The position numbers and the translations under genes were made by a program. A stretch of 22,779 bases of DNA from a virus: the UHGV virus genome UHGV-0189340, one strand, 5' to 3'. Positions 2,565-22,779 of this stretch are shown piece after piece. Every line of letters begins with the position of its first letter. The first letter of the stretch is position 1. The notes under the pieces are model-generated. The model worked only from the letters and a program-made list of their open reading frames with translations. It did no database searches and was not told where the DNA came from.

Positions 2565-2912
2565 TCAACTCACAGGAATAGTCAGTGACAGGGTTTTGCC
2601 GGTGTCCCGGGTCTCGCCGGTCAGCTCAACAATCATCTGACCGTTAAACTGACGTTCTACCGTCAGCGAGCTGATGCTGATGCGCGGCTCCCACTTCAGC
2701 AGCGCCATATAACAGGCGCACATAATTTGCAGTCTCAGCGCGTCGGTCTGCGGCATATCAATCAGGGAGAACAACAGCGAGCCATAATCGCGACGCATCA
2801 CGCGAGAGCCGACCGGCGTTCGCAAAATATCGCCACAGCTCTGACGGATGTGATCGGCGTCAGTGATGGCGCGCCCGGTCTCCCTGTTCATACCGATATA
2901 ACGGGTCGTCAT
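2565..2912 (-). CDS. W: Baseplate wedge protein, P2 gpW-like (gp25/GPW family)
   Basis: 115 aa, same length as P2 gpW; start overlaps the V stop. Confidence 0.88.
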   Translation of the reverse strand: MTTRYIGMNRETGRAITDADHIRQSCGDILRTPVGSRVMRRDYGSLLFSLIDMPQTDALRLQIMCACYMALLKWEPRISISSLTVERQFNGQMIVELTGETRDTGKTLSLTIPVS

Positions 2913-3550
2913 TTCGTGCCCTCCGTCCAGGCTCCACCTCTTTGCACACCGCCGTGACCGTGGCTGTCGACCTGAACGCCGTTGGATTTAAACGTACCGT
3001 CGGTGTGTTCGATGTTTCCGCGCATGGTGCCGCCTTGTTGTACCTCAAGCGTCGCCGTCGTCAGTTTGTTGGTGCAGACCACTTCCGGTGTATCGAGGGT
3101 GATGCGGGTCTCGGCTTTCACCGTCACCAGCGGTACCGTCGCGGTGATGGAATCCGACGCCGTAACGTCTGCGGTTTTAATGCCGCTCACGGTCAGCGCG
3201 CCGGTCTCCGGCTCGTACTCGATAACAGCCCCATCAGGAAAGGTGATGTGAAAAGCATCAGCCGACGCCGACGGCGCGGGGTGGTCATCCGAAAAAATGC
3301 CGGGCAGCACAAAAGCGGTGTCGAGTTCACCACCCACGGCCAGCAGTAAAACCTGCTCGCCCACAGACGGAGCCCACCAGACACGTGAACGACCGGCGCG
3401 TGTGGTCAGCCACTGAAGCCAGTCGGTAACAATGCCGCCAGTCTGGACGCGACAGCGCCCGTCATCGAGGTCAACTTCGACGACGACGCCGGTGCGTATC
3501 AGGTTGCGAAGGAGGCGTAAAGCGTCCTGAAGAGTTGCGCGAGTATTCAT
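2909..3550 (-). CDS. V: Baseplate spike protein, P2 gpV-like
   Basis: From Met 13 of the track ORF the protein (MNTRATLQDALRLLRNLIRTGVVVEVDLDDGRCRVQTGG...WLQWLT...RAGRSR.WWAPSVGEQVL) aligns by eye with the recalled P2 gpV. The upstream extension starts on TTG and is not supported. Confidence 0.88.
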   Translation of the reverse strand: MNTRATLQDALRLLRNLIRTGVVVEVDLDDGRCRVQTGGIVTDWLQWLTTRAGRSRVWWAPSVGEQVLLLAVGGELDTAFVLPGIFSDDHPAPSASADAFHITFPDGAVIEYEPETGALTVSGIKTADVTASDSITATVPLVTVKAETRITLDTPEVVCTNKLTTATLEVQQGGTMRGNIEHTDGTFKSNGVQVDSHGHGGVQRGGAWTEGTK

Positions 3551-3626
3551 ACAAGGAAGGATGCCGCCCGGTGCTCTGGACGGCAATTAATGCGGGTTTT
3601 ACCAGATATGGCACAACATACAAAAA

Positions 3627-4970
3627 CTAGCTTGGGGTAACTGTAACCTGACGAGAAAAAACAACAGGCTCCTTCAATTGCTCACATATAATTTTAAAAT
3701 TAATAACTCCAGAGCCAATCGTTAAGGGAATGATGACTATTTCCTCATACTCAACAGTTAAGCTCTGTAACACTTTTTTCGCACGCAACGTGATTTTATG
3801 GTCCTCTTTCATGACCCACTCATCTTGGTTAACTGTTCCTAAATCAGCCATCCGTTTAATTATTGCTGGCACTTCGAAATGAGGTTTAGCCATTACCATC
3901 GATGTATCATCAAAAATACCCATCCTAAAATTTTCGAGTGACATTATAGCACTGAGTCTTTTTTTATGCTTACTTATTGGGGACTCGGGGATTTTTAATT
4001 TCGGCTCTTTTATAAATAAGTCTTCATTAGAACCTTTAAGCACTATTAGGAATTCAGGAAAATCAATCTCAACATAAACATTTGACGCAAAAGTCCTCCC
4101 ATTATTTCTTAAAACGGGCTTCACTGTAATTGCATTGTTTTTGTAATTACAGTGCAATCTCATTTTTTTATTATATAAATCCACATCTTTATCAGTAGGC
4201 AGTGAAGAGTTATATGATTCAATCTCATCAATGGTGATAGTGTCCTTCAACTCAAGAGGTACCGCTTCCTTGCATAGTTGTGGAAGGTAATCCTGATAAG
4301 TCGACTCCACATCCACCGTCAAAGCTAAGTCATTATCAATCATACTCAGCTCTAATTGAGGTGCATCGCTATGTAATTGGCTTTCATATTCGCGGACTTT
4401 TTCCCTTAATTTTCTATTTTCATTAGATAGCTCAGCCAACTCGGCGGTAATCTCTTTAGATGCGACCTGGTCACCGCGCACCCATCCTATTCGTGGATTT
4501 CGTCGCATTACTTTTGGTAAGGCGATAGCAACCTTCGTCGCTAACTCATCAATTGTCTCCCAAAAATCACACATTTTGTTAGCTTTAGCTTTTTCAATAA
4601 AAGCATTTAGTTGCTTTTCTTTTTGAGGGTCACTTTCTCGTTCATGTGGTTTTGTTAAAACGTCCCTCCCTCTAATAAAAGCCAACACCGGTATATTTAA
4701 TGATTTAGCATAGTTATATTCCATTTCAGTATAGCTAATACCATCTTTAGAAACGGACCCATACTTATGCCCAATGATAATCACATAATAATCACTAGCA
4801 TCAATAGTCTCCTTTATTATATCCCACTGCTCAGAGTCATCAGCGCTAAACATCTCCATGCCAACTGGAAAGTGGTATAAACTAAGGACCGTTTCTATGA
4901 TTTTTTTGCGAGCATCAATTAAATCGACGTATGTAGAGCTCACAAATACTTGATATTTTTTATTTTCCAT
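3627..4970 (-). CDS. Uncharacterised cargo protein with DUF4062/TIR-like N-terminal domain, central coiled coil and unknown C-terminal domain
   Basis: AT-rich ORF in a GC-rich tail operon. Start placed at MENKKYQVFVSSTYVDL (ATG 4970, preceded by GAGGA); the N-terminal motif resembles DUF4062/TIR-like domains as I recall them. Occupies the S-V junction where P2 carries the non-essential orf30. Confidence 0.72.
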   Translation of the reverse strand: MENKKYQVFVSSTYVDLIDARKKIIETVLSLYHFPVGMEMFSADDSEQWDIIKETIDASDYYVIIIGHKYGSVSKDGISYTEMEYNYAKSLNIPVLAFIRGRDVLTKPHERESDPQKEKQLNAFIEKAKANKMCDFWETIDELATKVAIALPKVMRRNPRIGWVRGDQVASKEITAELAELSNENRKLREKVREYESQLHSDAPQLELSMIDNDLALTVDVESTYQDYLPQLCKEAVPLELKDTITIDEIESYNSSLPTDKDVDLYNKKMRLHCNYKNNAITVKPVLRNNGRTFASNVYVEIDFPEFLIVLKGSNEDLFIKEPKLKIPESPISKHKKRLSAIMSLENFRMGIFDDTSMVMAKPHFEVPAIIKRMADLGTVNQDEWVMKEDHKITLRAKKVLQSLTVEYEEIVIIPLTIGSGVINFKIICEQLKEPVVFSRQVTVTPS

Positions 4971-5007
4971 AACATCCTCACTTGTATAGAAAATAAAATA
5001 CATAAAA

Positions 5008-5475
5008 TCAATCAATAGATCTAGCCGCCTCAGCTAAAGAAACCATAATTATGTCATGAATCATATTTTTTGATTCATGATCAAACCCGATAAGCATTCG
5101 GGCGTCATACTGTACCGGCGCACTGTTTCGCCCAGGCCTATCTTTGAGACCGTACTGATGCACATTCGCCATCCGTTGTACCTTGCCGGTAAATTCCACG
5201 ACCGCCGAGTCATTCCCCGCTGTGGCTTTCATAAAGCGACTGGTGCGGAGCTTAGCGAACATTTCCCGCTTAACCCGGCCTGTTTTGGCTTTTACCGGCT
5301 GGCGTTTTCGGGCGGCGTAAGGTGTCCCGTCCGGGGCTTTCTGCATTTTAATCCGGCGCTGTTGACGGGCTCGCAGGGTCTTAGCGATATCTGCGGCCAT
5401 TCTGCGACGGGCGGCAGGAGACAGCGCTGCTATCAGCCCCGTGAGCGTATCGTCAAAGGGTTTAAAGTCATTCAT
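5008..5475 (-). CDS. S: Tail completion protein, P2 gpS-like
   Basis: 155 aa basic protein in the R-S position; start overlaps the R stop. Confidence 0.82.
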   Translation of the reverse strand: MNDFKPFDDTLTGLIAALSPAARRRMAADIAKTLRARQQRRIKMQKAPDGTPYAARKRQPVKAKTGRVKREMFAKLRTSRFMKATAGNDSAVVEFTGKVQRMANVHQYGLKDRPGRNSAPVQYDARMLIGFDHESKNMIHDIIMVSLAEAARSID

Positions 5476-13839: not shown

Positions 13840-14526
13840 TTATTGCTTATCTTGTGGTGGTGGAACCTCTTTTTCTAAATTATCTACATACTCTCTAATA
13901 TTGAATGCTTTGTTTTTCCTTATTTCGGTAGTGTTAACCTTACTAACACCATCACGAATGTTTTTATTTATGGTGTCTATTAATTTTTGTCTTTCTTGTT
14001 CTGTTTTTATTATTTCACTTAAGAATGACTTTGCGTTTCTTGAAATGTCCGTCTGTCTATTAATGAATAGTATCGCATACACTGAAAAAACCAAGCAAGT
14101 AGTCGTTAGTGCGGAATTAAAAAATACCCCATAATAAACATTAACTTTTGTTATTGACGCTGATAACGTTAGTGATATCAAAAAAAACAAAATCAGGGTA
14201 AAAATATATGCAATGGTTACTTTGTTTTTAGTGGTGTCAAGAATGTATGAAGTTCTTTGATCATCAAAGTAATCCTTTATCCTTGATGGAGTGTTTGCGG
14301 GGAGTTCTAACTCCTTTATTTTATCATCAGCATCAATTAGTCGCTTAAACATGAGGCTAATGATTACGGCGCTAAAGACAGAGATCCCCTTTGAAATTAT
14401 AGGATCGAAATCAATTAAAAATGAGTATTTTGAATAAACAAAAACAATAACAAAACCACATATAAGCCCAATTACAATTGAGCTTGCTATGTTTTTTGCA
14501 TATGTTTGTAACGTATTGTTTATCAT
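13840..14526 (-). CDS. Uncharacterised four-helix membrane protein; second gene of cargo operon, candidate membrane effector
   Basis: 228 aa, AT-rich. Four hydrophobic helices in a 2+2 arrangement (about residues 13-31, 47-60, 105-126, 132-155) and a charged C-terminal tail. Its ATG overlaps the upstream stop (ATGA). Confidence 0.75.
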   Translation of the reverse strand: MINNTLQTYAKNIASSIVIGLICGFVIVFVYSKYSFLIDFDPIISKGISVFSAVIISLMFKRLIDADDKIKELELPANTPSRIKDYFDDQRTSYILDTTKNKVTIAYIFTLILFFLISLTLSASITKVNVYYGVFFNSALTTTCLVFSVYAILFINRQTDISRNAKSFLSEIIKTEQERQKLIDTINKNIRDGVSKVNTTEIRKNKAFNIREYVDNLEKEVPPPQDKQ

Positions 14527-15506
14527 GGGTTAATTACTCCGGTGTCTAGTAAGCGCAATAACCATGAAATCATTTCTTCAGCAACGTTGTCAGCAATTAG
14601 CATTCCATTGCTGTATTCAATATTAACTGAATCCTTTAGTTGAATCTCATCATTCCTGAGTATTCCTGCACCTTTTAACTCAATTGTTAAGCTTTCATCT
14701 CTATTATCAACCAAGCCTTGTGTAATTTTACGCAACATGTCTTGCTCAGACTCGCTTGCTTTATATTTATACCCAATGGAAATATCAATTGATAGAGATT
14801 CCCTGTCAGGTGAACCATCATTTAAAATGGCATTTTTCTTCATTTCATTAATTCGATGTTCACCTACGAGCGTTTTTAATAGCTCACTAGCTGTATCATC
14901 AATATTATTTCCATAGTAGGTTAAAGGCAGCTTTAAGCTAACATTTTTTACTATGTTACGTTTTAAAAAATCCGTATTTAGAGACAGGTTGTTTGCCTGT
15001 AAAACGATGAAGTTATCATCAGTAATAGATAGGTTGTCTTGTAGTATGAAATTTATATAATTTTCAATATCTTTTATTCTAATAGATCTGCTTTGCAGAA
15101 TTATGAAGTGGTTCTTAATCACACCAATGTATGCAATGCTTTCTAAATACTCTCTAGCATTCCCACTTGATAAATTTAATGTCTCGTATGTTAAAGCTGT
15201 TTTAGCATAATCGCTAACAGAGAAAACAGGAATGCTACTACCCGGTTCAATATAGACAATTTCCGCAAAAAACATTCCATGAATTTCTTTGCTATTTGAA
15301 AGAACCATGTGGGCGTGAGCAGCGACATTACCATTATTATCTGGAACATCAGGGAAGAATAATCTATCAGCAACATTTGGAACCTTGATTTTCACAAGGT
15401 TTGCCAACCTATCTTGCAGGTTTGATGTTAAAAGAGCATCCTTTTTAGGAAGCATTATTGCATGGCGATAATGCAGCATTTTACTCTTATAATCTTGCGT
15501 TGCCAT
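14523..15506 (-). CDS. Uncharacterised soluble protein; first gene of cargo operon, candidate sensor or enzymatic partner
   Basis: 327 aa, AT-rich, Asn/Ile/Leu-rich. Good RBS (AGAGGGA, 5-nt spacer) before the ATG at 15506. No Walker A, HxH or other motif I recognise. Confidence 0.78.
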   Translation of the reverse strand: MATQDYKSKMLHYRHAIMLPKKDALLTSNLQDRLANLVKIKVPNVADRLFFPDVPDNNGNVAAHAHMVLSNSKEIHGMFFAEIVYIEPGSSIPVFSVSDYAKTALTYETLNLSSGNAREYLESIAYIGVIKNHFIILQSRSIRIKDIENYINFILQDNLSITDDNFIVLQANNLSLNTDFLKRNIVKNVSLKLPLTYYGNNIDDTASELLKTLVGEHRINEMKKNAILNDGSPDRESLSIDISIGYKYKASESEQDMLRKITQGLVDNRDESLTIELKGAGILRNDEIQLKDSVNIEYSNGMLIADNVAEEMISWLLRLLDTGVINP

Positions 15507-16100: not shown

Positions 16101-16249
16101 TAACGTATTGGCAAAAGATGGGAAGAGAAAAAGTGAATCGGGTAGGTGTTGTATGTACATGATATGGATGTAAATTAATCACCTGTGAGTTTTGATGTTT
16201 CTGCCAGCACCGCAACACGATTAAGGATTTCCCTAGGCTTTGCCTGAAG

Positions 16250-18403
16250 CTATGGCGCTGCGGAGAAAATTTCACCTTTGGACGTTCCACGCAACCATTT
16301 ACCGTTAATACAACTTTTGCCACCTGCTATCAGGTGCAGGGCTTCTCCCCGGCTGATGGTAATGCCGGTTGTCAGACGGATCTCGTCGATAGTTTTTTCT
16401 ATCGGAGCACTTTGCTCATCTGTTCCGTGGATAAATTTCGGCCTCTTAGGTGGCTTTGGTTTCCTGATTCGGTTCGTCAGCTCTCGCCTTTCACGTCGAC
16501 TCAGGGGTTTTGATAAATCGAGTTCCGGTGGATCGCTTTCGCTTCCCGTACAGTTATTGACAGAACTCGAACTCCAAGGGACGGCGAAGCCGTCCTTAAC
16601 GTCAAAGGCCAAATCAACGGCACGCTTCGGAACAATTTTCCATTGCGTGAGCCGGGTTAAAATCGGAGTGCCAACACCAACGGTGGAGTCGTACACACCA
16701 CGAATGCAGACAGTTTCCTCACCATACTGGTTAAACTCGGTGCGCGGTTCATAAAGCGTACGCACCTGCAAATCATCGCGACGGACAAACGGACCGCCCT
16801 GCGCATTAACATAGCCAGCCCAATCACCGGCATCGGCGGCATCATGGACAGCCGCAAACTCAACACTTAGACCGTGCGCGGTCTCGGTATCTGCAAGGCG
16901 ACGCAATTCACGATAAACAGTCACTGGTGCACCACCGATAAACTGAAACTGACGAATATGCCAGCGCGCCGCCCATGCTGAAACGGCGGGGGCTGTCTCT
17001 TTCAACAGTTCACCGTTTTCGTCATCGGTTTCGTCATCAAGAGCGTAACCGTCGATATTTTTCGAGATGTATTTCGCGACGTAGCCGGTTGCGCTGCCTT
17101 TCTCCGGATCAATGGCTTCTGCGTGGAAACGTGCTTTTTTGGCTTTATCGCTTTTGAGTTCGTGAAAATCTTCTTGCCATGCGTAGTCCCGAATAATGCC
17201 ACGAACGGTATCGACGTCCTCCGGGAGCATAAACATCAGCATATGCCAGTGAGGGCACCCGTCATGGTGAGGCTCTGCAACGCGGATCCCGAAAATACGA
17301 ATGTCTTCACGGTGGAGTTTTGCGCGAATGCGTGCCCACAGGCCAGTGAGATAACATTGCGTATCGGATGGATTGGATCCATTCCATTTGGTGTTACGGT
17401 AGCCTGCCTTTGTCGTGGCGTGATATTTAGACGGTGCGGTCAGGGTGTAAAACTCACCAACATAACCGAGCTCATTGCAGATATTTTCAAACCCACGAAT
17501 GCGGGTCATAAGCTCACAGCGTCGAATCGCAGAGTTAGCGACTGAACCATCGTATTTTTCAATCAGGCTGATACGGTTGCCGTCTTCGTCTTCAAGCTCC
17601 AGACCTTTGAGAAATTCGCGCGTCCGGCGCTTCTGTTCACGCCAGTCTGTCACGCAGTTTTTACTCGCGTAGACATGTTTTTTCTTACTGACATTTCCGA
17701 TTGCGATTTGCAGGTGTTCGCGCCACGCAGCCGCAACGCGACGCAGACGGCCACGCCACCATTTTTCCGAAAACATACGGGCAATTGCTGGAGCGACTTT
17801 ATCCTGATCCCAATATTTATCCCGCGACCGTTCCCACTCTGGTGGCATTATCCTGAATTGCTGAGTGATGAAACCAGCATGCATATACCAGGCATTTAAT
17901 GTCTCCAGTTCACACATGTCAGAATCGTCAATGTTGACTAACTCTGCACGGATAAAATCGGCGATATCAGCAGCCAGCAGGTCGATGTCGGCGCGTGCCA
18001 TATCCGGGAGTCGGTTGTATCTGGCGACTATGTTGACCATGCGAGACGCCAGATATTGCATAAGCTGAGTATCGAAATGACAACCGAAAACAGCGGCTGA
18101 TACGTTGCTGTTAATACCGGTACACTCGTATTTTTTTGCGACCAGTTCAAAACGCGGCAATGCCTTTTTGCAGAAGCTTATTAAAAAAGCATTGGCTCGT
18201 TGACTGCCCTGATTTTGCTCCAGCACCGCAGCAGTGCGATAAACGTCAAAACGTACACACTCGGGCTGGAGGGAAAGCACCTTTCTAGCATGCAGCAAAG
18301 CCGCGAGCATACGGTCGCGGCGATACTGTTGGTCGTAGGTAAGATATGGACTGGCTATTGCCGACCGTGGAGCATTCCACGGAAACGCGAATTGAACAGC
18401 CAA
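16250..18403 (-). CDS. A: Replication initiation endonuclease, P2 gpA-like (rolling-circle initiator)
   Basis: 717-aa ORF (P2 gpA 761 aa) at the distal end of the early operon, before the cos-proximal region; a P2-type ori would be expected inside its 3' part. Confidence 0.88.
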   Translation of the reverse strand: MAVQFAFPWNAPRSAIASPYLTYDQQYRRDRMLAALLHARKVLSLQPECVRFDVYRTAAVLEQNQGSQRANAFLISFCKKALPRFELVAKKYECTGINSNVSAAVFGCHFDTQLMQYLASRMVNIVARYNRLPDMARADIDLLAADIADFIRAELVNIDDSDMCELETLNAWYMHAGFITQQFRIMPPEWERSRDKYWDQDKVAPAIARMFSEKWWRGRLRRVAAAWREHLQIAIGNVSKKKHVYASKNCVTDWREQKRRTREFLKGLELEDEDGNRISLIEKYDGSVANSAIRRCELMTRIRGFENICNELGYVGEFYTLTAPSKYHATTKAGYRNTKWNGSNPSDTQCYLTGLWARIRAKLHREDIRIFGIRVAEPHHDGCPHWHMLMFMLPEDVDTVRGIIRDYAWQEDFHELKSDKAKKARFHAEAIDPEKGSATGYVAKYISKNIDGYALDDETDDENGELLKETAPAVSAWAARWHIRQFQFIGGAPVTVYRELRRLADTETAHGLSVEFAAVHDAADAGDWAGYVNAQGGPFVRRDDLQVRTLYEPRTEFNQYGEETVCIRGVYDSTVGVGTPILTRLTQWKIVPKRAVDLAFDVKDGFAVPWSSSSVNNCTGSESDPPELDLSKPLSRRERRELTNRIRKPKPPKRPKFIHGTDEQSAPIEKTIDEIRLTTGITISRGEALHLIAGGKSCINGKWLRGTSKGEIFSAAP

Positions 18404-20822: not shown

Positions 20823-21860
20823 ATGAGTGTTAAAAAACTGACATCGGGTGAATGGCTTTGTGATTTCCGCGTCGACGGGGCTGAAAGTCGCCGCGTGCGT
20901 AAGAAGTTTTCAACCAAAGGTGAAGCCGTTGCCTTCGAACAGTATTACCGAGAAGAGGCACAAAATAAGCCGTGGATGGGTGAGAAGGAAGACCGTCGAC
21001 GTTTGAGTGAACTGATTGAGCTGTGGCATAACCTCCATGGCCAGTCGCTCGCTGCCAGCAAATCGCGATTGGCCAAACTGCACATTGTTTGCCGGGGTCT
21101 TGGCGACCCAATCGCTACCCAGCTTACCGCCAAAGATTTCGCCCATTATCGGGATAAACGTCTCAAGGGTGAAATCGACAATGGCTATCACGCAAATTCT
21201 GAAAAGTGGATTGCGAAACCTGTGACTGTGAACCGGGAACAACAGTACCTCGAAGCTGTTTTCAATGAGCTGAAGCGCTTGGGTGAGTGGAGTCTGCCAA
21301 ATCCTCTCGAAGGTGTGCGAGTTTTCAAAGAAGCCGAAAAAGAAATGTCTTGGCTTACCCAGCCTCAAATTCGCGAAGTGCTCAATGCTTGTGAGTCATA
21401 CGGGAAAATTTATTTAACCCGTATCGTCAAAGTGTGCTTAGCGACTGGTGCTCGATGGAGCGAGGCCGAGCGTCTTACTCGTTCACAGCTTTCACCCCAC
21501 AAGTTGACTTTCACTAAAACGAAGGGAAAGAAGAATCGTACAGTACCGATCCCTCGGTGGCTATATGACGAGTTGGCTCCTTTACAGGGAAAAATGTTCC
21601 ACCCCTGCTATCAGGAGTTCAAGAAAATGCTCGCTCTGACCGATATAGAGTTAGCTGAAGGGCAAAAAACGCATGTGTTACGTCATACATTTGCGAGTCA
21701 CTTTATGATGAATGGTGGGAACATTTTAGTACTGCAACGAATCTTGGGCCATTCTAACATTAGGGAAACCATGAGATACGCTCATTTTGCACCAGATCAT
21801 TTAGAAGAAGCTGTAACTCTTAACCCTATTTCTAATTTAACAGGATTATATGATGAGTGA
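20823..21860 (+). CDS. int: Tyrosine integrase (P2/186 Int family)
   Basis: 345 aa; C-terminal catalytic region with conserved R...HxLRHT...R...Y pattern (HVLRHTFASHF...GHSNIRETMRYAH). Confidence 0.9.
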   Translation: MSVKKLTSGEWLCDFRVDGAESRRVRKKFSTKGEAVAFEQYYREEAQNKPWMGEKEDRRRLSELIELWHNLHGQSLAASKSRLAKLHIVCRGLGDPIATQLTAKDFAHYRDKRLKGEIDNGYHANSEKWIAKPVTVNREQQYLEAVFNELKRLGEWSLPNPLEGVRVFKEAEKEMSWLTQPQIREVLNACESYGKIYLTRIVKVCLATGARWSEAERLTRSQLSPHKLTFTKTKGKKNRTVPIPRWLYDELAPLQGKMFHPCYQEFKKMLALTDIELAEGQKTHVLRHTFASHFMMNGGNILVLQRILGHSNIRETMRYAHFAPDHLEEAVTLNPISNLTGLYDE

Positions 21861-22779
21861 GCCAACCATCGAAACACCTCCAAGAATGACCGAGGCCAAA
21901 GTCATTAGGGTACGCACTCGTGGTTTTTATAATTTAGTTGAGATAGGTGCAGTCTTTCTAGTTGCAAATGTAATTTTTGCTACAGGGATATTAGACTCAA
22001 CCTTTTATTATTTATTTCCCAGTGCGAGAGCAGATCTTACACATTTGCCGAGCTTTATCAGGTCAATATTCGCAGTGTCATTTGTAATCGTTTACACCAT
22101 TATCTATGGTGTGTCTCCAATCCAAAGAATGTTTATGAGAATTACAGGGAGTGATTCAGTCGACAAATCATCGATGTTTAATATTGTCGATATTATAAAT
22201 GAGATAAAACTACTCAAGAAGGCTCAAGAGGAAAGGGCTGCTGCTGATGAAGATGAATCTCTGGATTTTTATCTTAAAGGTTTGATTAATAGCTCTGAAG
22301 GTCTTGCGAAAAACATATATTCTCGCGGTAGTCTTTATTTATTAGTCGGTGTTTGTTTTGCAATAGTTGGATTAGGTTTCTTCTATTCTCAATCACATGT
22401 AATTGATGCTAAGGATGATGCGGTAACCAAGGTAATGTATCTTCTCCCTAATTTTGGCGTGTTGATTTTCTTGGAGTTAATCGCATTTTTCTTTTTGAAG
22501 CAATATCGGGTTACGATGGATGAGTTTCGCTATTACGAGGCAATAAAACGTTCACGTGAGGAAAGCTATGCCATTATAAAGCTTGTAATGGCTAGCCAGA
22601 AAGATATCGATATGATAGACCTTCTGGATAAAATTAATTTTAGCTCAAGAGTTGGAAAACTAGAATCAGGGCAGACTACTGAAATTATTGAAGCAAGAAA
22701 ATTAGACAAAAATGAACTTGAAACCTTAGTAAAGCTTACCGAGGCAGTTGCGGGTAAGATTGGACAGGGAAATAAGTAG
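21850..22779 (+). CDS. Uncharacterised four-helix membrane protein, translationally coupled to int
   Basis: 309 aa, AT-rich. ATG (21850 or 21853) overlaps the last int codons. Four hydrophobic helices in a 2+2 arrangement with a charged central loop and helical C-terminal tail. Stop codon is the last three bases of the window. Confidence 0.7.
   Translation: MMSEPTIETPPRMTEAKVIRVRTRGFYNLVEIGAVFLVANVIFATGILDSTFYYLFPSARADLTHLPSFIRSIFAVSFVIVYTIIYGVSPIQRMFMRITGSDSVDKSSMFNIVDIINEIKLLKKAQEERAAADEDESLDFYLKGLINSSEGLAKNIYSRGSLYLLVGVCFAIVGLGFFYSQSHVIDAKDDAVTKVMYLLPNFGVLIFLELIAFFFLKQYRVTMDEFRYYEAIKRSREESYAIIKLVMASQKDIDMIDLLDKINFSSRVGKLESGQTTEIIEARKLDKNELETLVKLTEAVAGKIGQGNK

What the first reader, a model, noticed from the sequence alone, without database searches (positions are those of the whole stretch)
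3627..4970. AT-rich 447-aa gene with DUF4062/TIR-like N-terminus inserted between tail genes S and V
Seen in sequence: S is followed by an AT-rich ORF whose N-terminus (KYQVFVSSTYVDLIDARKKI...FPVGMEMF) looks like a DUF4062/TIR-like domain as I recall the family, then a coiled coil (…ELAELSNENRKLREKVREYESQL…) and a roughly 230-aa C-terminal region I cannot assign. Established knowledge: P2 carries the non-essential orf30 at this S-V junction, and TIR-like/DUF4062 N-terminal domains recur in anti-phage proteins. Inference: a single-gene defence or superinfection-exclusion cargo gene carried in the late operon.
Basis: partly seen in the sequence, partly recalled or inferred. Interest (0 to 1): 0.66.

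Follow-up and report, generated by a model that had tools for sequence, protein, structure and literature searches.

The report
Prophage-borne DUF4062 NADase defence gene
A foreign, AT-rich gene sits between two tail genes of a P2-like E. coli prophage; by homology it is an anti-phage "suicide" enzyme (a TIR-like NAD+-destroying domain, described only in 2026) joined to a previously undescribed sensor-like domain.

Summary
Window 3627..4970 (minus strand) is an intact 447-aa ORF with 37% GC against 57-59% in its flanks. It lies between tail genes S and V of a P2-like E. coli prophage.

Residues 7-88 match Pfam DUF4062 end to end (E=1.8e-28). Residues 3-209 align without gaps, at 40% identity, to the solved structure of KpSwz (Swarozyc). 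KpSwz is a 2026-described, portal-activated TIR-like NADase that causes abortive infection. The catalytic Glu (E84 here, E97 in KpSwz) and the F/QW/SYTE-EY motifs are invariant in 56 homologues.

The C-terminal ~245 aa is not the KpSwz winged-helix sensor. It has no Pfam family and is confidently predicted as an Ig/macroglobulin/CARDB-like beta-sandwich with helical inserts. It diverges much faster than the effector (31% against 74% mean identity). It also occurs fused to other N-termini (HetE-N; a TM/MORN-like region).

The S-V junction is a cargo hotspot. Of 30 related loci, 21 carry diverse AT-rich inserts, including PARIS, Pycsar and caspase-like genes, and 9 are empty.

Verdict: a probable single-gene abortive-infection defence, a new sensor variant of the Swarozyc/Evangelion kind. 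Activity, trigger and expression are untested.

The parts
3627..4970 (-). Complete cargo gene: 447-aa DUF4062 protein plus TAG stop (WP_001366609.1 in E. coli FORC 064)
   Evidence: ORF and translation. RefSeq annotation in a 99.9% identical locus. GC 0.37.
4491..4970 (-). TIR-like NADase effector domain (residues ~1-160); the Pfam DUF4062 core is residues 7-88
   Evidence: PF13271 E=1.8e-28. Ungapped alignment to the KpSwz solved structure. Alternating beta/alpha secondary structure in the model. 74% mean identity across homologues.
4719..4721 (-). Codon of the predicted catalytic glutamate E84 (motif S79-Y-T-E82-M-E84-Y85)
   Evidence: It aligns to position 84 of the KpSwz chain, which is Ala in the deposited E97A mutant. 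An offset of +13 also fits D16, R18, D71 and W176 as named in the paper. It is invariant in 56 homologues.
4368..4457 (-). Long helical stalk / coiled coil (residues 172-201), preceded by the invariant G162-W163 motif
   Evidence: Predicted helix H172-201. 43% identity to the KpSwz stalk region.
3630..4361 (-). C-terminal auxiliary (putative sensor) domain, residues 204-447: beta-sandwich with helical inserts and a disordered loop at ~351-381
4976..4979 (-). Shine-Dalgarno GAGG, 5 nt upstream of the ATG
   Evidence: Read directly from the sequence. A purine-rich block at the same place is conserved in five homologous loci.
3618..5085 (.). Extent of the low-GC exchanged cassette (it includes the last ~25 codons of S)
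   Evidence: 60-nt GC scan. Alignment with empty S-V junctions shows the backbone resuming at GTTGTG 3612-3617. S homology to relatives stops at residue ~144-150 of 155.
5008..5475 (-). Upstream flank: tail completion / virion morphogenesis gene S
   Evidence: PF05069 E=4.7e-34.
2909..3550 (-). Downstream flank: baseplate spike gene V (ATG at 3550)
   Evidence: PF04717 and PF18715. RefSeq gives 213 aa.
3551..3617 (-). Conserved backbone intergenic region upstream of V. By its position in P2 it corresponds to the late-promoter PV activator-binding region.
   Evidence: Conserved between occupied and empty junctions. The P2 annotation places the activator-binding site and the V transcription start here.

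Best explanation
The gene is a horizontally acquired, single-gene anti-phage defence of the DUF4062 (Swarozyc/Evangelion/'NIR') kind, carried as cargo by a P2-like prophage.

The protein has three parts:
1. An N-terminal TIR-like NAD+ glycohydrolase domain.
2. A long helical stalk that, by analogy with KpSwz, makes an intertwined, auto-inhibited dimer or oligomer.
3. A C-terminal beta-sandwich domain that acts as the sensor.

Proposed mechanism, inferred from the homologue. In uninfected lysogens the enzyme is held inactive. When a competing phage infects, a phage-made component binds and clusters the C-terminal domains. [quoted passage not shown] This protects the lysogen population and the prophage.

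Shown here: domain identity, homology to the solved and tested KpSwz effector plus stalk, conservation of the catalytic motifs, a different and fast-evolving C-terminal domain, foreign composition, and a hotspot location shared with known defence systems.

Inferred, not shown: enzymatic activity, defence phenotype, identity of the trigger (probably not recognised the way KpSwz recognises the portal, because the sensor domain is unrelated), and expression in the lysogen.
For: - Pfam DUF4062 matches end to end at 99 bits.
- Residues 3-209 align to the PDB chains of KpSwz (10wc/11cq/11cv) with E=3.3e-46, no gaps and 40% identity.
- KpSwz is experimentally a portal-activated NADase that causes abortive infection and needs E97 and its AUX domain. 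Eva01 gives an independent example of DUF4062 plus AUX defence with NAD+ depletion.
- F9, Q48-W49, S79-Y-T81-E82 and E84-Y85 are invariant or nearly so in 56 full-length homologues.
- The effector domain averages 74% identity to the query, against 31% for the C-terminal domain. This is the pattern expected of a conserved effector and a sensor in an arms race.
- The C-terminal domain is a portable module. It is also found behind a HetE-N domain (P0126) and behind a TM/MORN-like region, next to AAA_15/AAA_21 and DUF6119 genes (P0151).
- Of 30 S-V junctions in other species, 21 hold AT-rich cargo. This includes PARIS AriA/AriB, Pycsar PycC, a caspase-like protein and PDC-S15.
- Homologues at 43-57% identity occupy the same S-V slot in Klebsiella, Citrobacter, Serratia, Kosakonia and Pluralibacter prophages.
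- Only 15 of 5426 complete E. coli genomes carry this allele at 99.5% identity or more.
Against: - This protein has not been tested in any experiment I could find.
- PADLOC-DB 2.0.0 (2023) has no model that matches it.
- No sigma-70 promoter above chance was found upstream, so expression in the lysogen is unproven.
- The gene has the same orientation as the late genes. It could therefore be read through from the O..S operon during the prophage's own lytic cycle, which an abortive-infection toxin would have to tolerate.
Confidence: 0.7

Rival explanations
1. It is a weapon against other mobile elements, or an addiction module, rather than host-population defence. On this view the protein is made mainly during the prophage's own late phase. 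It senses proteins of a parasite such as a P4-like satellite, or of a co-infecting phage, and shuts down the cell to deny the competitor. Alternatively it acts as a toxin that stabilises the prophage.
For: The gene is co-oriented with, and directly follows, the late O..S operon, with only a weak terminator-like hairpin between them. P2-like phages are in known conflict with P4 satellites, and both carry defence hotspots (Rousset 2022, PMC9122126; PMC13586616).
Against: The closest characterised relatives protect cells from lytic phages when expressed alone. No antitoxin-like partner ORF lies in the cassette. Homologues also occur outside prophages, in an integron-like cassette array in Aliivibrio and beside a CAP12-PCTIR TIR gene in a metagenome contig.
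Confidence: 0.1
2. It is a phage-benefit or counter-defence enzyme. On this view the TIR-like domain is used by the phage to consume NAD+-derived or nucleotide immune signals, or to remodel host metabolism during lytic growth.
For: It is phage-encoded and positioned next to late genes. DUF4062 belongs by sequence similarity to the TIR / nucleoside 2-deoxyribosyltransferase superfamily, whose members act on various nucleotides.
Against: The effector and stalk are 40% identical to a protein shown to deplete NAD+ and abort infection. The architecture of effector, stalk and hypervariable C-terminal domain is that of a sensor-effector immune protein. Neighbouring alleles at the same slot are defence systems, not anti-defence genes.
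Confidence: 0.07
3. It is a structural or assembly protein of the P2-type tail, as its position between S and V might suggest.
For: Position only.
Against: It is absent from phage Wphi and from 9 of 30 related prophages, whose S-V gap is ~75 nt. In 20 others it is replaced by unrelated cargo. P2's own occupant of this slot is annotated as non-essential. Composition is foreign. The protein is homologous to an enzyme, not to any virion protein.
Confidence: 0.01
4. It is a decaying or inactive relic with no current function.
For: The near-identical prophage in E. coli FORC 064 has its replication gene A annotated as a pseudogene. The prophage may therefore be defective.
Against: The ORF is intact, and all family-invariant residues are present. 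The exact protein is seen on 571 contigs, and its 90% cluster has 277 members in E. coli and Salmonella. This is consistent with a maintained gene.
Confidence: 0.05

Closest known systems
Swarozyc (KpSwz, Klebsiella pneumoniae; Osinski et al. 2026, bioRxiv 10.64898/2026.05.01.722283; PDB 10wc/11cq/11cv)
   Same: It is a single-gene protein with an N-terminal DUF4062 TIR-like domain followed by a helical stalk. The two align without gaps over 207 residues at 40% identity (E=3.3e-46). The catalytic Glu, the GW motif before the stalk, and residues corresponding to D16 and D71 are conserved.
   Different: The C-terminal domain differs. KpSwz (326-residue chain) has a ~120-aa HTH/winged-helix AUX that wraps the phage portal. 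This protein has a ~245-aa predicted beta-sandwich with helical inserts and no detectable sequence similarity to it. The trigger is therefore probably different. The context also differs: a prophage S-V slot rather than a chromosomal defence island.
Evangelion (Eva01-Eva04; Ibarra-Chavez et al. 2026, bioRxiv 10.64898/2026.06.25.731849)
   Same: [quoted passage not shown] Members are carried by plasmids, prophages and satellites. All three motifs are present here.
   Different: Eva01 is a short plasmid-borne staphylococcal protein with a compact AUX, triggered through phage recombination/replication functions. That paper places Swarozyc in a lineage separate from Eva01. I could not obtain the sequences of Eva02-04, so I cannot say whether the present lineage equals Eva03 (active in E. 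coli against Dhillonvirus).
P2 orf30 (NP_046770.1), the classical occupant of the S-V junction
   Same: The insertion slot is the same: after the S stop and before the PV activator-binding site. Both are non-essential AT-rich cargo.
   Different: There is no homology (BLASTP E=2.5). Orf30 is on the opposite strand and is a 261-aa protein. Homologues of it occupy 3 of my 30 surveyed loci: a three-member blastp cluster, linked to Orf30 by my reading of a shared sequence motif.
Canonical TIR-domain abortive-infection proteins (e.g. Thoeris ThsB, TIR-STING, SARM1-type NADases)
   Same: The predicted chemistry (NAD+ cleavage through a conserved Glu in a flavodoxin-like beta/alpha fold) and the logic of oligomerisation-triggered activation are the same, according to the KpSwz paper.
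   Different: No Pfam TIR, TIR_2 or TIR-like model matches. KpSwz uses an AB dimer interface unlike the AE interface of SARM1. Only ADP-ribose and nicotinamide were reported as products for the DUF4062 enzymes assayed in the Swarozyc paper (KpSwz and human TEP1), and no signalling product.

Membership tests
Pfam PF13271 (DUF4062) | HMM score above the gathering threshold over the whole domain | tested here: met
   99 bits against a 24.7 cut-off, E=1.8e-28, residues 7-88 on profile positions 1-82 of 82.
DUF4062 NADases (Swarozyc / Evangelion / TEP1) | Catalytic glutamate and the conserved motifs (aromatic core, Q/W/E, acidic-SYT...E-Y) | tested here: met
   F9, E47-Q48-W49, D76..S79-Y80-T81-E82-M-E84-Y85 are present. 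E84 aligns with the mutated E97A position of the KpSwz chain. The motifs are described.
DUF4062 NADases (Swarozyc / Evangelion / TEP1) | NAD+ hydrolysis to ADP-ribose plus nicotinamide | not testable with these tools
   This needs purified protein and HPLC, or NAD+ measurement in infected cells.
Swarozyc (sensu Osinski et al. 2026) | Helical stalk after the TIR-like domain that mediates the intertwined dimer | tested here: met
   Sequence homology continues through residue 209. A helix is predicted at 172-201. Oligomeric state was not tested.
Swarozyc (sensu Osinski et al. 2026) | C-terminal HTH/winged-helix AUX domain similar to that of KpSwz, which binds the phage portal | tested here: not met
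   Residues 198-447 give no hit to the KpSwz chains even at E<=10, in the same PDB sequence set that holds them. The predicted fold is a beta-sandwich.
Swarozyc (sensu Osinski et al. 2026) | Anti-phage protection by abortive infection, dependent on the catalytic Glu and on AUX | not testable with these tools
   This requires plaque and liquid-infection assays.
Evangelion (sensu Ibarra-Chavez et al. 2026) | Single gene with a DUF4062 core plus a non-annotated auxiliary region, on a mobile element | tested here: met
   The architecture was shown, and the prophage cargo context. This is a loose, architecture-level definition.
Evangelion (sensu Ibarra-Chavez et al. 2026) | Placement in the Eva01 clade, or identity with Eva02/03/04 | not tested
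   No sequences or accessions of Eva01-04 were available to me.
Canonical TIR (Pfam PF01582 / PF13676 / PF10137) | Match to a TIR profile | tested here: not met
   No TIR family appears among the Pfam hits at E<=1.
P2-like S-V junction cargo (orf30 slot) | Located between the S stop and the conserved PV upstream region; variable among relatives; foreign composition | tested here: met

The most novel reading that the evidence does not exclude
The ~245-aa C-terminal beta-sandwich is a new, portable phage-sensing domain with no Pfam family. It recognises a phage component other than the one the KpSwz AUX recognises. Evolution has plugged it onto at least three different killing modules: the DUF4062 NADase, a HetE-N domain, and a TM/MORN-like region. 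The P2-like S-V slot would then act as a long-lived 'allele library' of this sensor, with 43-62% identical versions in the same slot across Enterobacterales.
Probability: 0.5. Interest if true: 0.55.

Novelty: new variant of a known kind. Interest (0 to 1): 0.42.

Why it matters
DUF4062 was recognised as an immune NADase only in 2026, in three preprints. It links bacterial defence to human TEP1 and the vault particle.

This locus shows that a Swarozyc-type effector plus stalk is combined in nature with a completely different, uncharacterised sensor domain. The combination is common, with more than 150 clusters at 50% identity. Identifying the trigger of that domain would show how one effector scaffold is re-targeted.

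The result also gives base-pair resolution to a P2-like defence hotspot, the S-V (orf30) slot. Recent surveys lump this slot under 'within the tail genes'.

On the practical side, current defence annotation (PADLOC 2023) misses the gene. Defence content of E. coli and Salmonella lysogens is therefore under-counted.

Tried and rejected
- PADLOC and NCBIfam gave nothing meaningful for the protein. The only sub-threshold hits lie on the coiled coil.
- Canonical TIR profiles do not match.
- tblastn against 50,697 phage records found only a distant N-terminal match (27% identity) in two Acinetobacter phage records. Sequenced reference P2-like phages therefore do not carry the gene.
- The afdb50 library was unavailable.
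- The promoter/terminator scan around the gene found no more sites than shuffled sequence. A visually plausible TTGATT-17-TATACA upstream of the SD is weak, and the alignment of six loci does not clearly conserve it. I make no promoter claim.
- P2 Orf30 is not a homologue.
- The third DUF4062 paper ('NIR', bioRxiv 10.64898/2026.09.04.749371) could not be opened. Only the start of its abstract was seen.
- I could not resolve UniParc UPI0002A39D72 (the 'EcDUF4062' tested by Osinski et al.) or the Eva03 sequence. I therefore cannot exclude that this exact lineage has already been assayed. The Swarozyc paper does say that its five tested proteins share KpSwz-like AUX domains, which this protein lacks.
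- I first took E82 as the catalytic residue. I corrected this to E84 once I recognised that the deposited chain is the E97A mutant.

Full report
OBSERVATION

The ORF reported at 3627-4970 is real and lies on the minus strand. It runs from ATG at 4970 to TAG at 3627-3629 and encodes 447 codons. A GAGG Shine-Dalgarno at 4976-4979 precedes the ATG by 5 nt. The mechanically longest ORF (TTG at 5015) overlaps the end of S and has no ribosome-binding site. RefSeq annotates the 447-aa product in 99.5-99.9% identical E. coli loci.

The gene has 37% GC, against 58.6% and 57.3% for the tail and lysis/head genes on either side. The low-GC block runs from about 3618 to 5085, so it includes the last ~25 codons of S.

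The neighbours are confirmed by Pfam. S is PF05069 (E=4.7e-34). V is PF04717 plus PF18715. R and W lie beyond them. The whole window is a P2-like prophage of E. coli with the gene order ...I J W V [cargo] S R lysC/B K Y X L M N O | P Q....

WHAT THE PROTEIN IS

Residues 7-88 match Pfam DUF4062 over the entire 82-position profile (99 bits, cut-off 24.7). No canonical TIR model, NCBIfam model or PADLOC-2023 model matches. PHROGs holds the family as function-unknown: phrog_9489 matches full length.

The decisive result is a sequence search of the PDB. Residues 3-209 align without a single gap to 'KpSwz DUF4062' (entries 10wc, 11cq, 11cv) at E=3.3e-46 and 40% identity.

KpSwz is Swarozyc, described in a May 2026 preprint (10.64898/2026.05.01.722283). 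That paper reports:
- DUF4062 is a TIR-like fold.
- It protects E. coli by abortive infection.
- It requires E97 and its C-terminal auxiliary (AUX) domain.
- In the resting state it forms intertwined dimers through a helical stalk, with the active site occluded.

The numbering of that paper fits the deposited chain with an offset of +13 (D16, R18, D71 and W176 are chain positions 3, 5, 58 and 163). E97 is therefore chain position 84, which is Ala in the E97A construct. That position aligns with E84 of the present protein, in the motif S79-Y-T-E82-M-E84-Y85.

A second preprint (Evangelion, 10.64898/2026.06.25.731849) independently shows DUF4062-plus-AUX single-gene defence with NAD+ depletion. 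It names the same three motifs: an aromatic core, Q/W/E, and acidic-SYT with an E-Y catalytic region. In an alignment of 56 full-length homologues, F9, Q48, W49, T81, E82, E84, Y85, G162 and W163 are invariant.

A third preprint ('NIR') could not be opened.

THE C-TERMINAL DOMAIN IS DIFFERENT

Homology to KpSwz ends with the stalk, a predicted helix at 172-201.

Residues 198-447 give no hit to KpSwz or to any other PDB sequence at meaningful E-values. They have no Pfam family.

Modelled alone with a 56-sequence alignment, this region folds with pLDDT 88 and pTM 0.75. The fold is a beta-sandwich with two long helical inserts and one disordered loop.

The invariant residues of the C-terminal domain are mostly Pro, Gly and Asn, plus a near-invariant C429-x-E431 in the last strands. 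This looks structural rather than catalytic.

Three observations support a sensor role:
- The domain diverges far faster than the effector. Mean identity to the query is 31%, against 74% for residues 1-160 and 56% for the stalk.
- An exhaustive phmmer search of 1.84 billion cluster representatives with the C-terminal 250 aa found 156 clusters. Nearly all are ~440-470-aa proteins with the domain at the same position, so the architecture is widespread.
- A few complete proteins carry the same domain, with all its motifs, behind other N-termini. P0126 (371 aa) has a HetE-N domain (PF20701, E=1.6e-11). P0151 (646 aa) has a transmembrane segment and a MORN-like region, and sits beside DUF6119 and AAA_15/AAA_21 genes.

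A conserved effector coupled to a swappable, fast-evolving C-terminal module is the usual layout of sensor-effector immune proteins.

GENOMIC CONTEXT

I fetched loci encoding gpS relatives from one genome per species and located S and V in each.

Of 30 loci with both genes:
- 9 have an S-V gap of 65-76 nt.
- 21 have gaps of 0.84-3.16 kb with 31-42% GC in 45-60% GC loci.

The inserts are almost all different from one another: 29 clusters among 33 ORFs. They include PARIS AriA/AriB (L020), a full-length Pycsar cyclase (L028, E=1.4e-129), a caspase-like protein (L012), PDC-S15/FRG (L030), and three relatives of P2 Orf30. Only one locus (Pluralibacter, L008) has a DUF4062 homologue, at 55% identity.

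Independent look-ups of homologues at 43-57% identity found them in exactly the same slot in Klebsiella pneumoniae, Citrobacter, Serratia and Kosakonia P2-like prophages. An Aliivibrio homologue lies in what looks like an integron cassette array. A metagenomic homologue lies next to a CAP12-PCTIR TIR gene.

In E. coli, 15 of 5426 complete genomes carry this allele, all chromosomal. In the two loci I opened, it lies between S and V. The exact protein is on 571 contigs, and its 90% cluster spans E. coli and Salmonella.

Alignment with empty junctions shows that the backbone resumes at GTTGTG (3612-3617). It then continues through a conserved ~65-nt stretch to the V start. In phage P2 the same interval holds the O-operon terminator, Orf30 (opposite strand, non-essential) and the PV activator-binding site. 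Phage Wphi has nothing there.

The cargo therefore sits between two late transcription units rather than inside one.

Recent surveys of P2-like phages mention defence systems 'within the tail genes' or 'downstream of GpL' without resolving this slot. They do not mention DUF4062.

MECHANISM PROPOSED

By homology (inferred), the protein rests as an auto-inhibited stalk-mediated oligomer. A component of an infecting phage binds and arrays the C-terminal beta-sandwich domains. The TIR-like domains then assemble into an active NADase, and NAD+ depletion aborts the infection.

The trigger is unknown. Because the sensor fold is unrelated to the KpSwz AUX, I do not assume it is the portal.

Open issues:
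- No promoter above chance was found.
- The gene is co-oriented with the late genes, behind only a weak hairpin.
- It is therefore unknown how the gene is expressed in the lysogen, and how self-triggering is avoided during the prophage's own induction.

RIVALS

A structural role is excluded by the gene's absence or replacement in relatives, by its composition and by its homology. An inter-element weapon or addiction role, a counter-defence role, and inactivity are not excluded, but they have little support (see the rival explanations).

COMPARISON AND NOVELTY

The protein is a bona fide DUF4062 family member. It shares effector and stalk with Swarozyc. It fails the Swarozyc feature 'KpSwz-like AUX'. 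It meets the loose architectural definition of Evangelion, but clade placement could not be tested.

I therefore file it as a new (sensor) variant of a known kind. One caveat applies. I could not retrieve the sequences of EcDUF4062 (UPI0002A39D72) or of Eva03, so prior testing of this lineage cannot be ruled out.

SCORES

Interest is moderate (0.42). A specialist would not be surprised by a DUF4062 defence gene in a P2 hotspot in late 2026. The undescribed, portable sensor domain and the well-resolved S-V hotspot are useful and directly testable.

Noticed in passing
window 13840-15506 (minus strand): There is a second AT-rich island (GC ~0.31-0.35) between portal gene Q and replication gene A, the classic old/tin defence hotspot. 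It holds two overlapping ORFs of 228 and 327 aa. Neither has a Pfam or PADLOC match. RefSeq calls them hypothetical (WP_000609549.1, WP_000235290.1). This is a candidate uncharacterised two-gene defence system.
   Followed up: partly
window 21850-22779 (plus strand): An AT-rich 309-aa ORF starts 11 nt inside the end of the integrase gene (20823-21860) and stops at the window edge. It has no Pfam or PADLOC hit. It sits in the integrase-att slot that PMC13586616 lists as a minor P2 defence hotspot.
   Followed up: partly
loci L003-L034 (S at ~4001-4450 in each): The S-V junction of P2-like prophages is a diverse cargo hotspot across Enterobacterales. 21 of 30 loci are occupied. Occupants include PARIS AriA/AriB (L020 4660-6776), Pycsar PycC (L028 4951-6365), a caspase-like protein (L012 4537-6008), PDC-S15/FRG (L030 4480-5375), and many ORFs with no PADLOC hit.
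   Followed up: partly
P0126 (locus L044 267-1382) and P0151 (locus L045 3227-5167): The C-terminal beta-sandwich domain of the target, with its YN..LP, N.G..A, P..P and IICEE motifs, is also found fused to a HetE-N domain. It is also found fused to a TM plus MORN-like N-terminus, in a neighbourhood with DUF6119 and AAA_15/AAA_21 genes.
   Followed up: partly
window ~16175-18403 (minus strand); L001 26546-28768: In the 99.9% identical E. coli FORC 064 prophage, the replication endonuclease gene A is annotated as a pseudogene with an internal stop. In the window, the ORF ends at 16250, about 25 codons before the annotated end. The prophage may be replication-defective while keeping its cargo.
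   Followed up: no
L038 6001-7338 (Aliivibrio sifiae): A 47% identical full-length homologue lies in an array of small, same-strand cassette-like genes (many GNAT acetyltransferases, a TacA antitoxin). This is suggestive of a chromosomal integron cassette array.
   Followed up: no
window 5008-5085 (3' end of S): The last ~25 codons of the essential gene S are AT-rich (33% GC). Homology to S of relatives stops at residue ~144-150. The exchanged cassette therefore brings its own S C-terminus, which suggests recombination inside S rather than at the stop codon.
   Followed up: partly
window residues 3-256 of the target against phrog_15411: A second PHROG family (333-position profile) matches the effector, the stalk and the first ~50 residues of the C-terminal region (E=9.7e-79). 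It may represent truncated variants or a third AUX type. This was not resolved.
   Followed up: no
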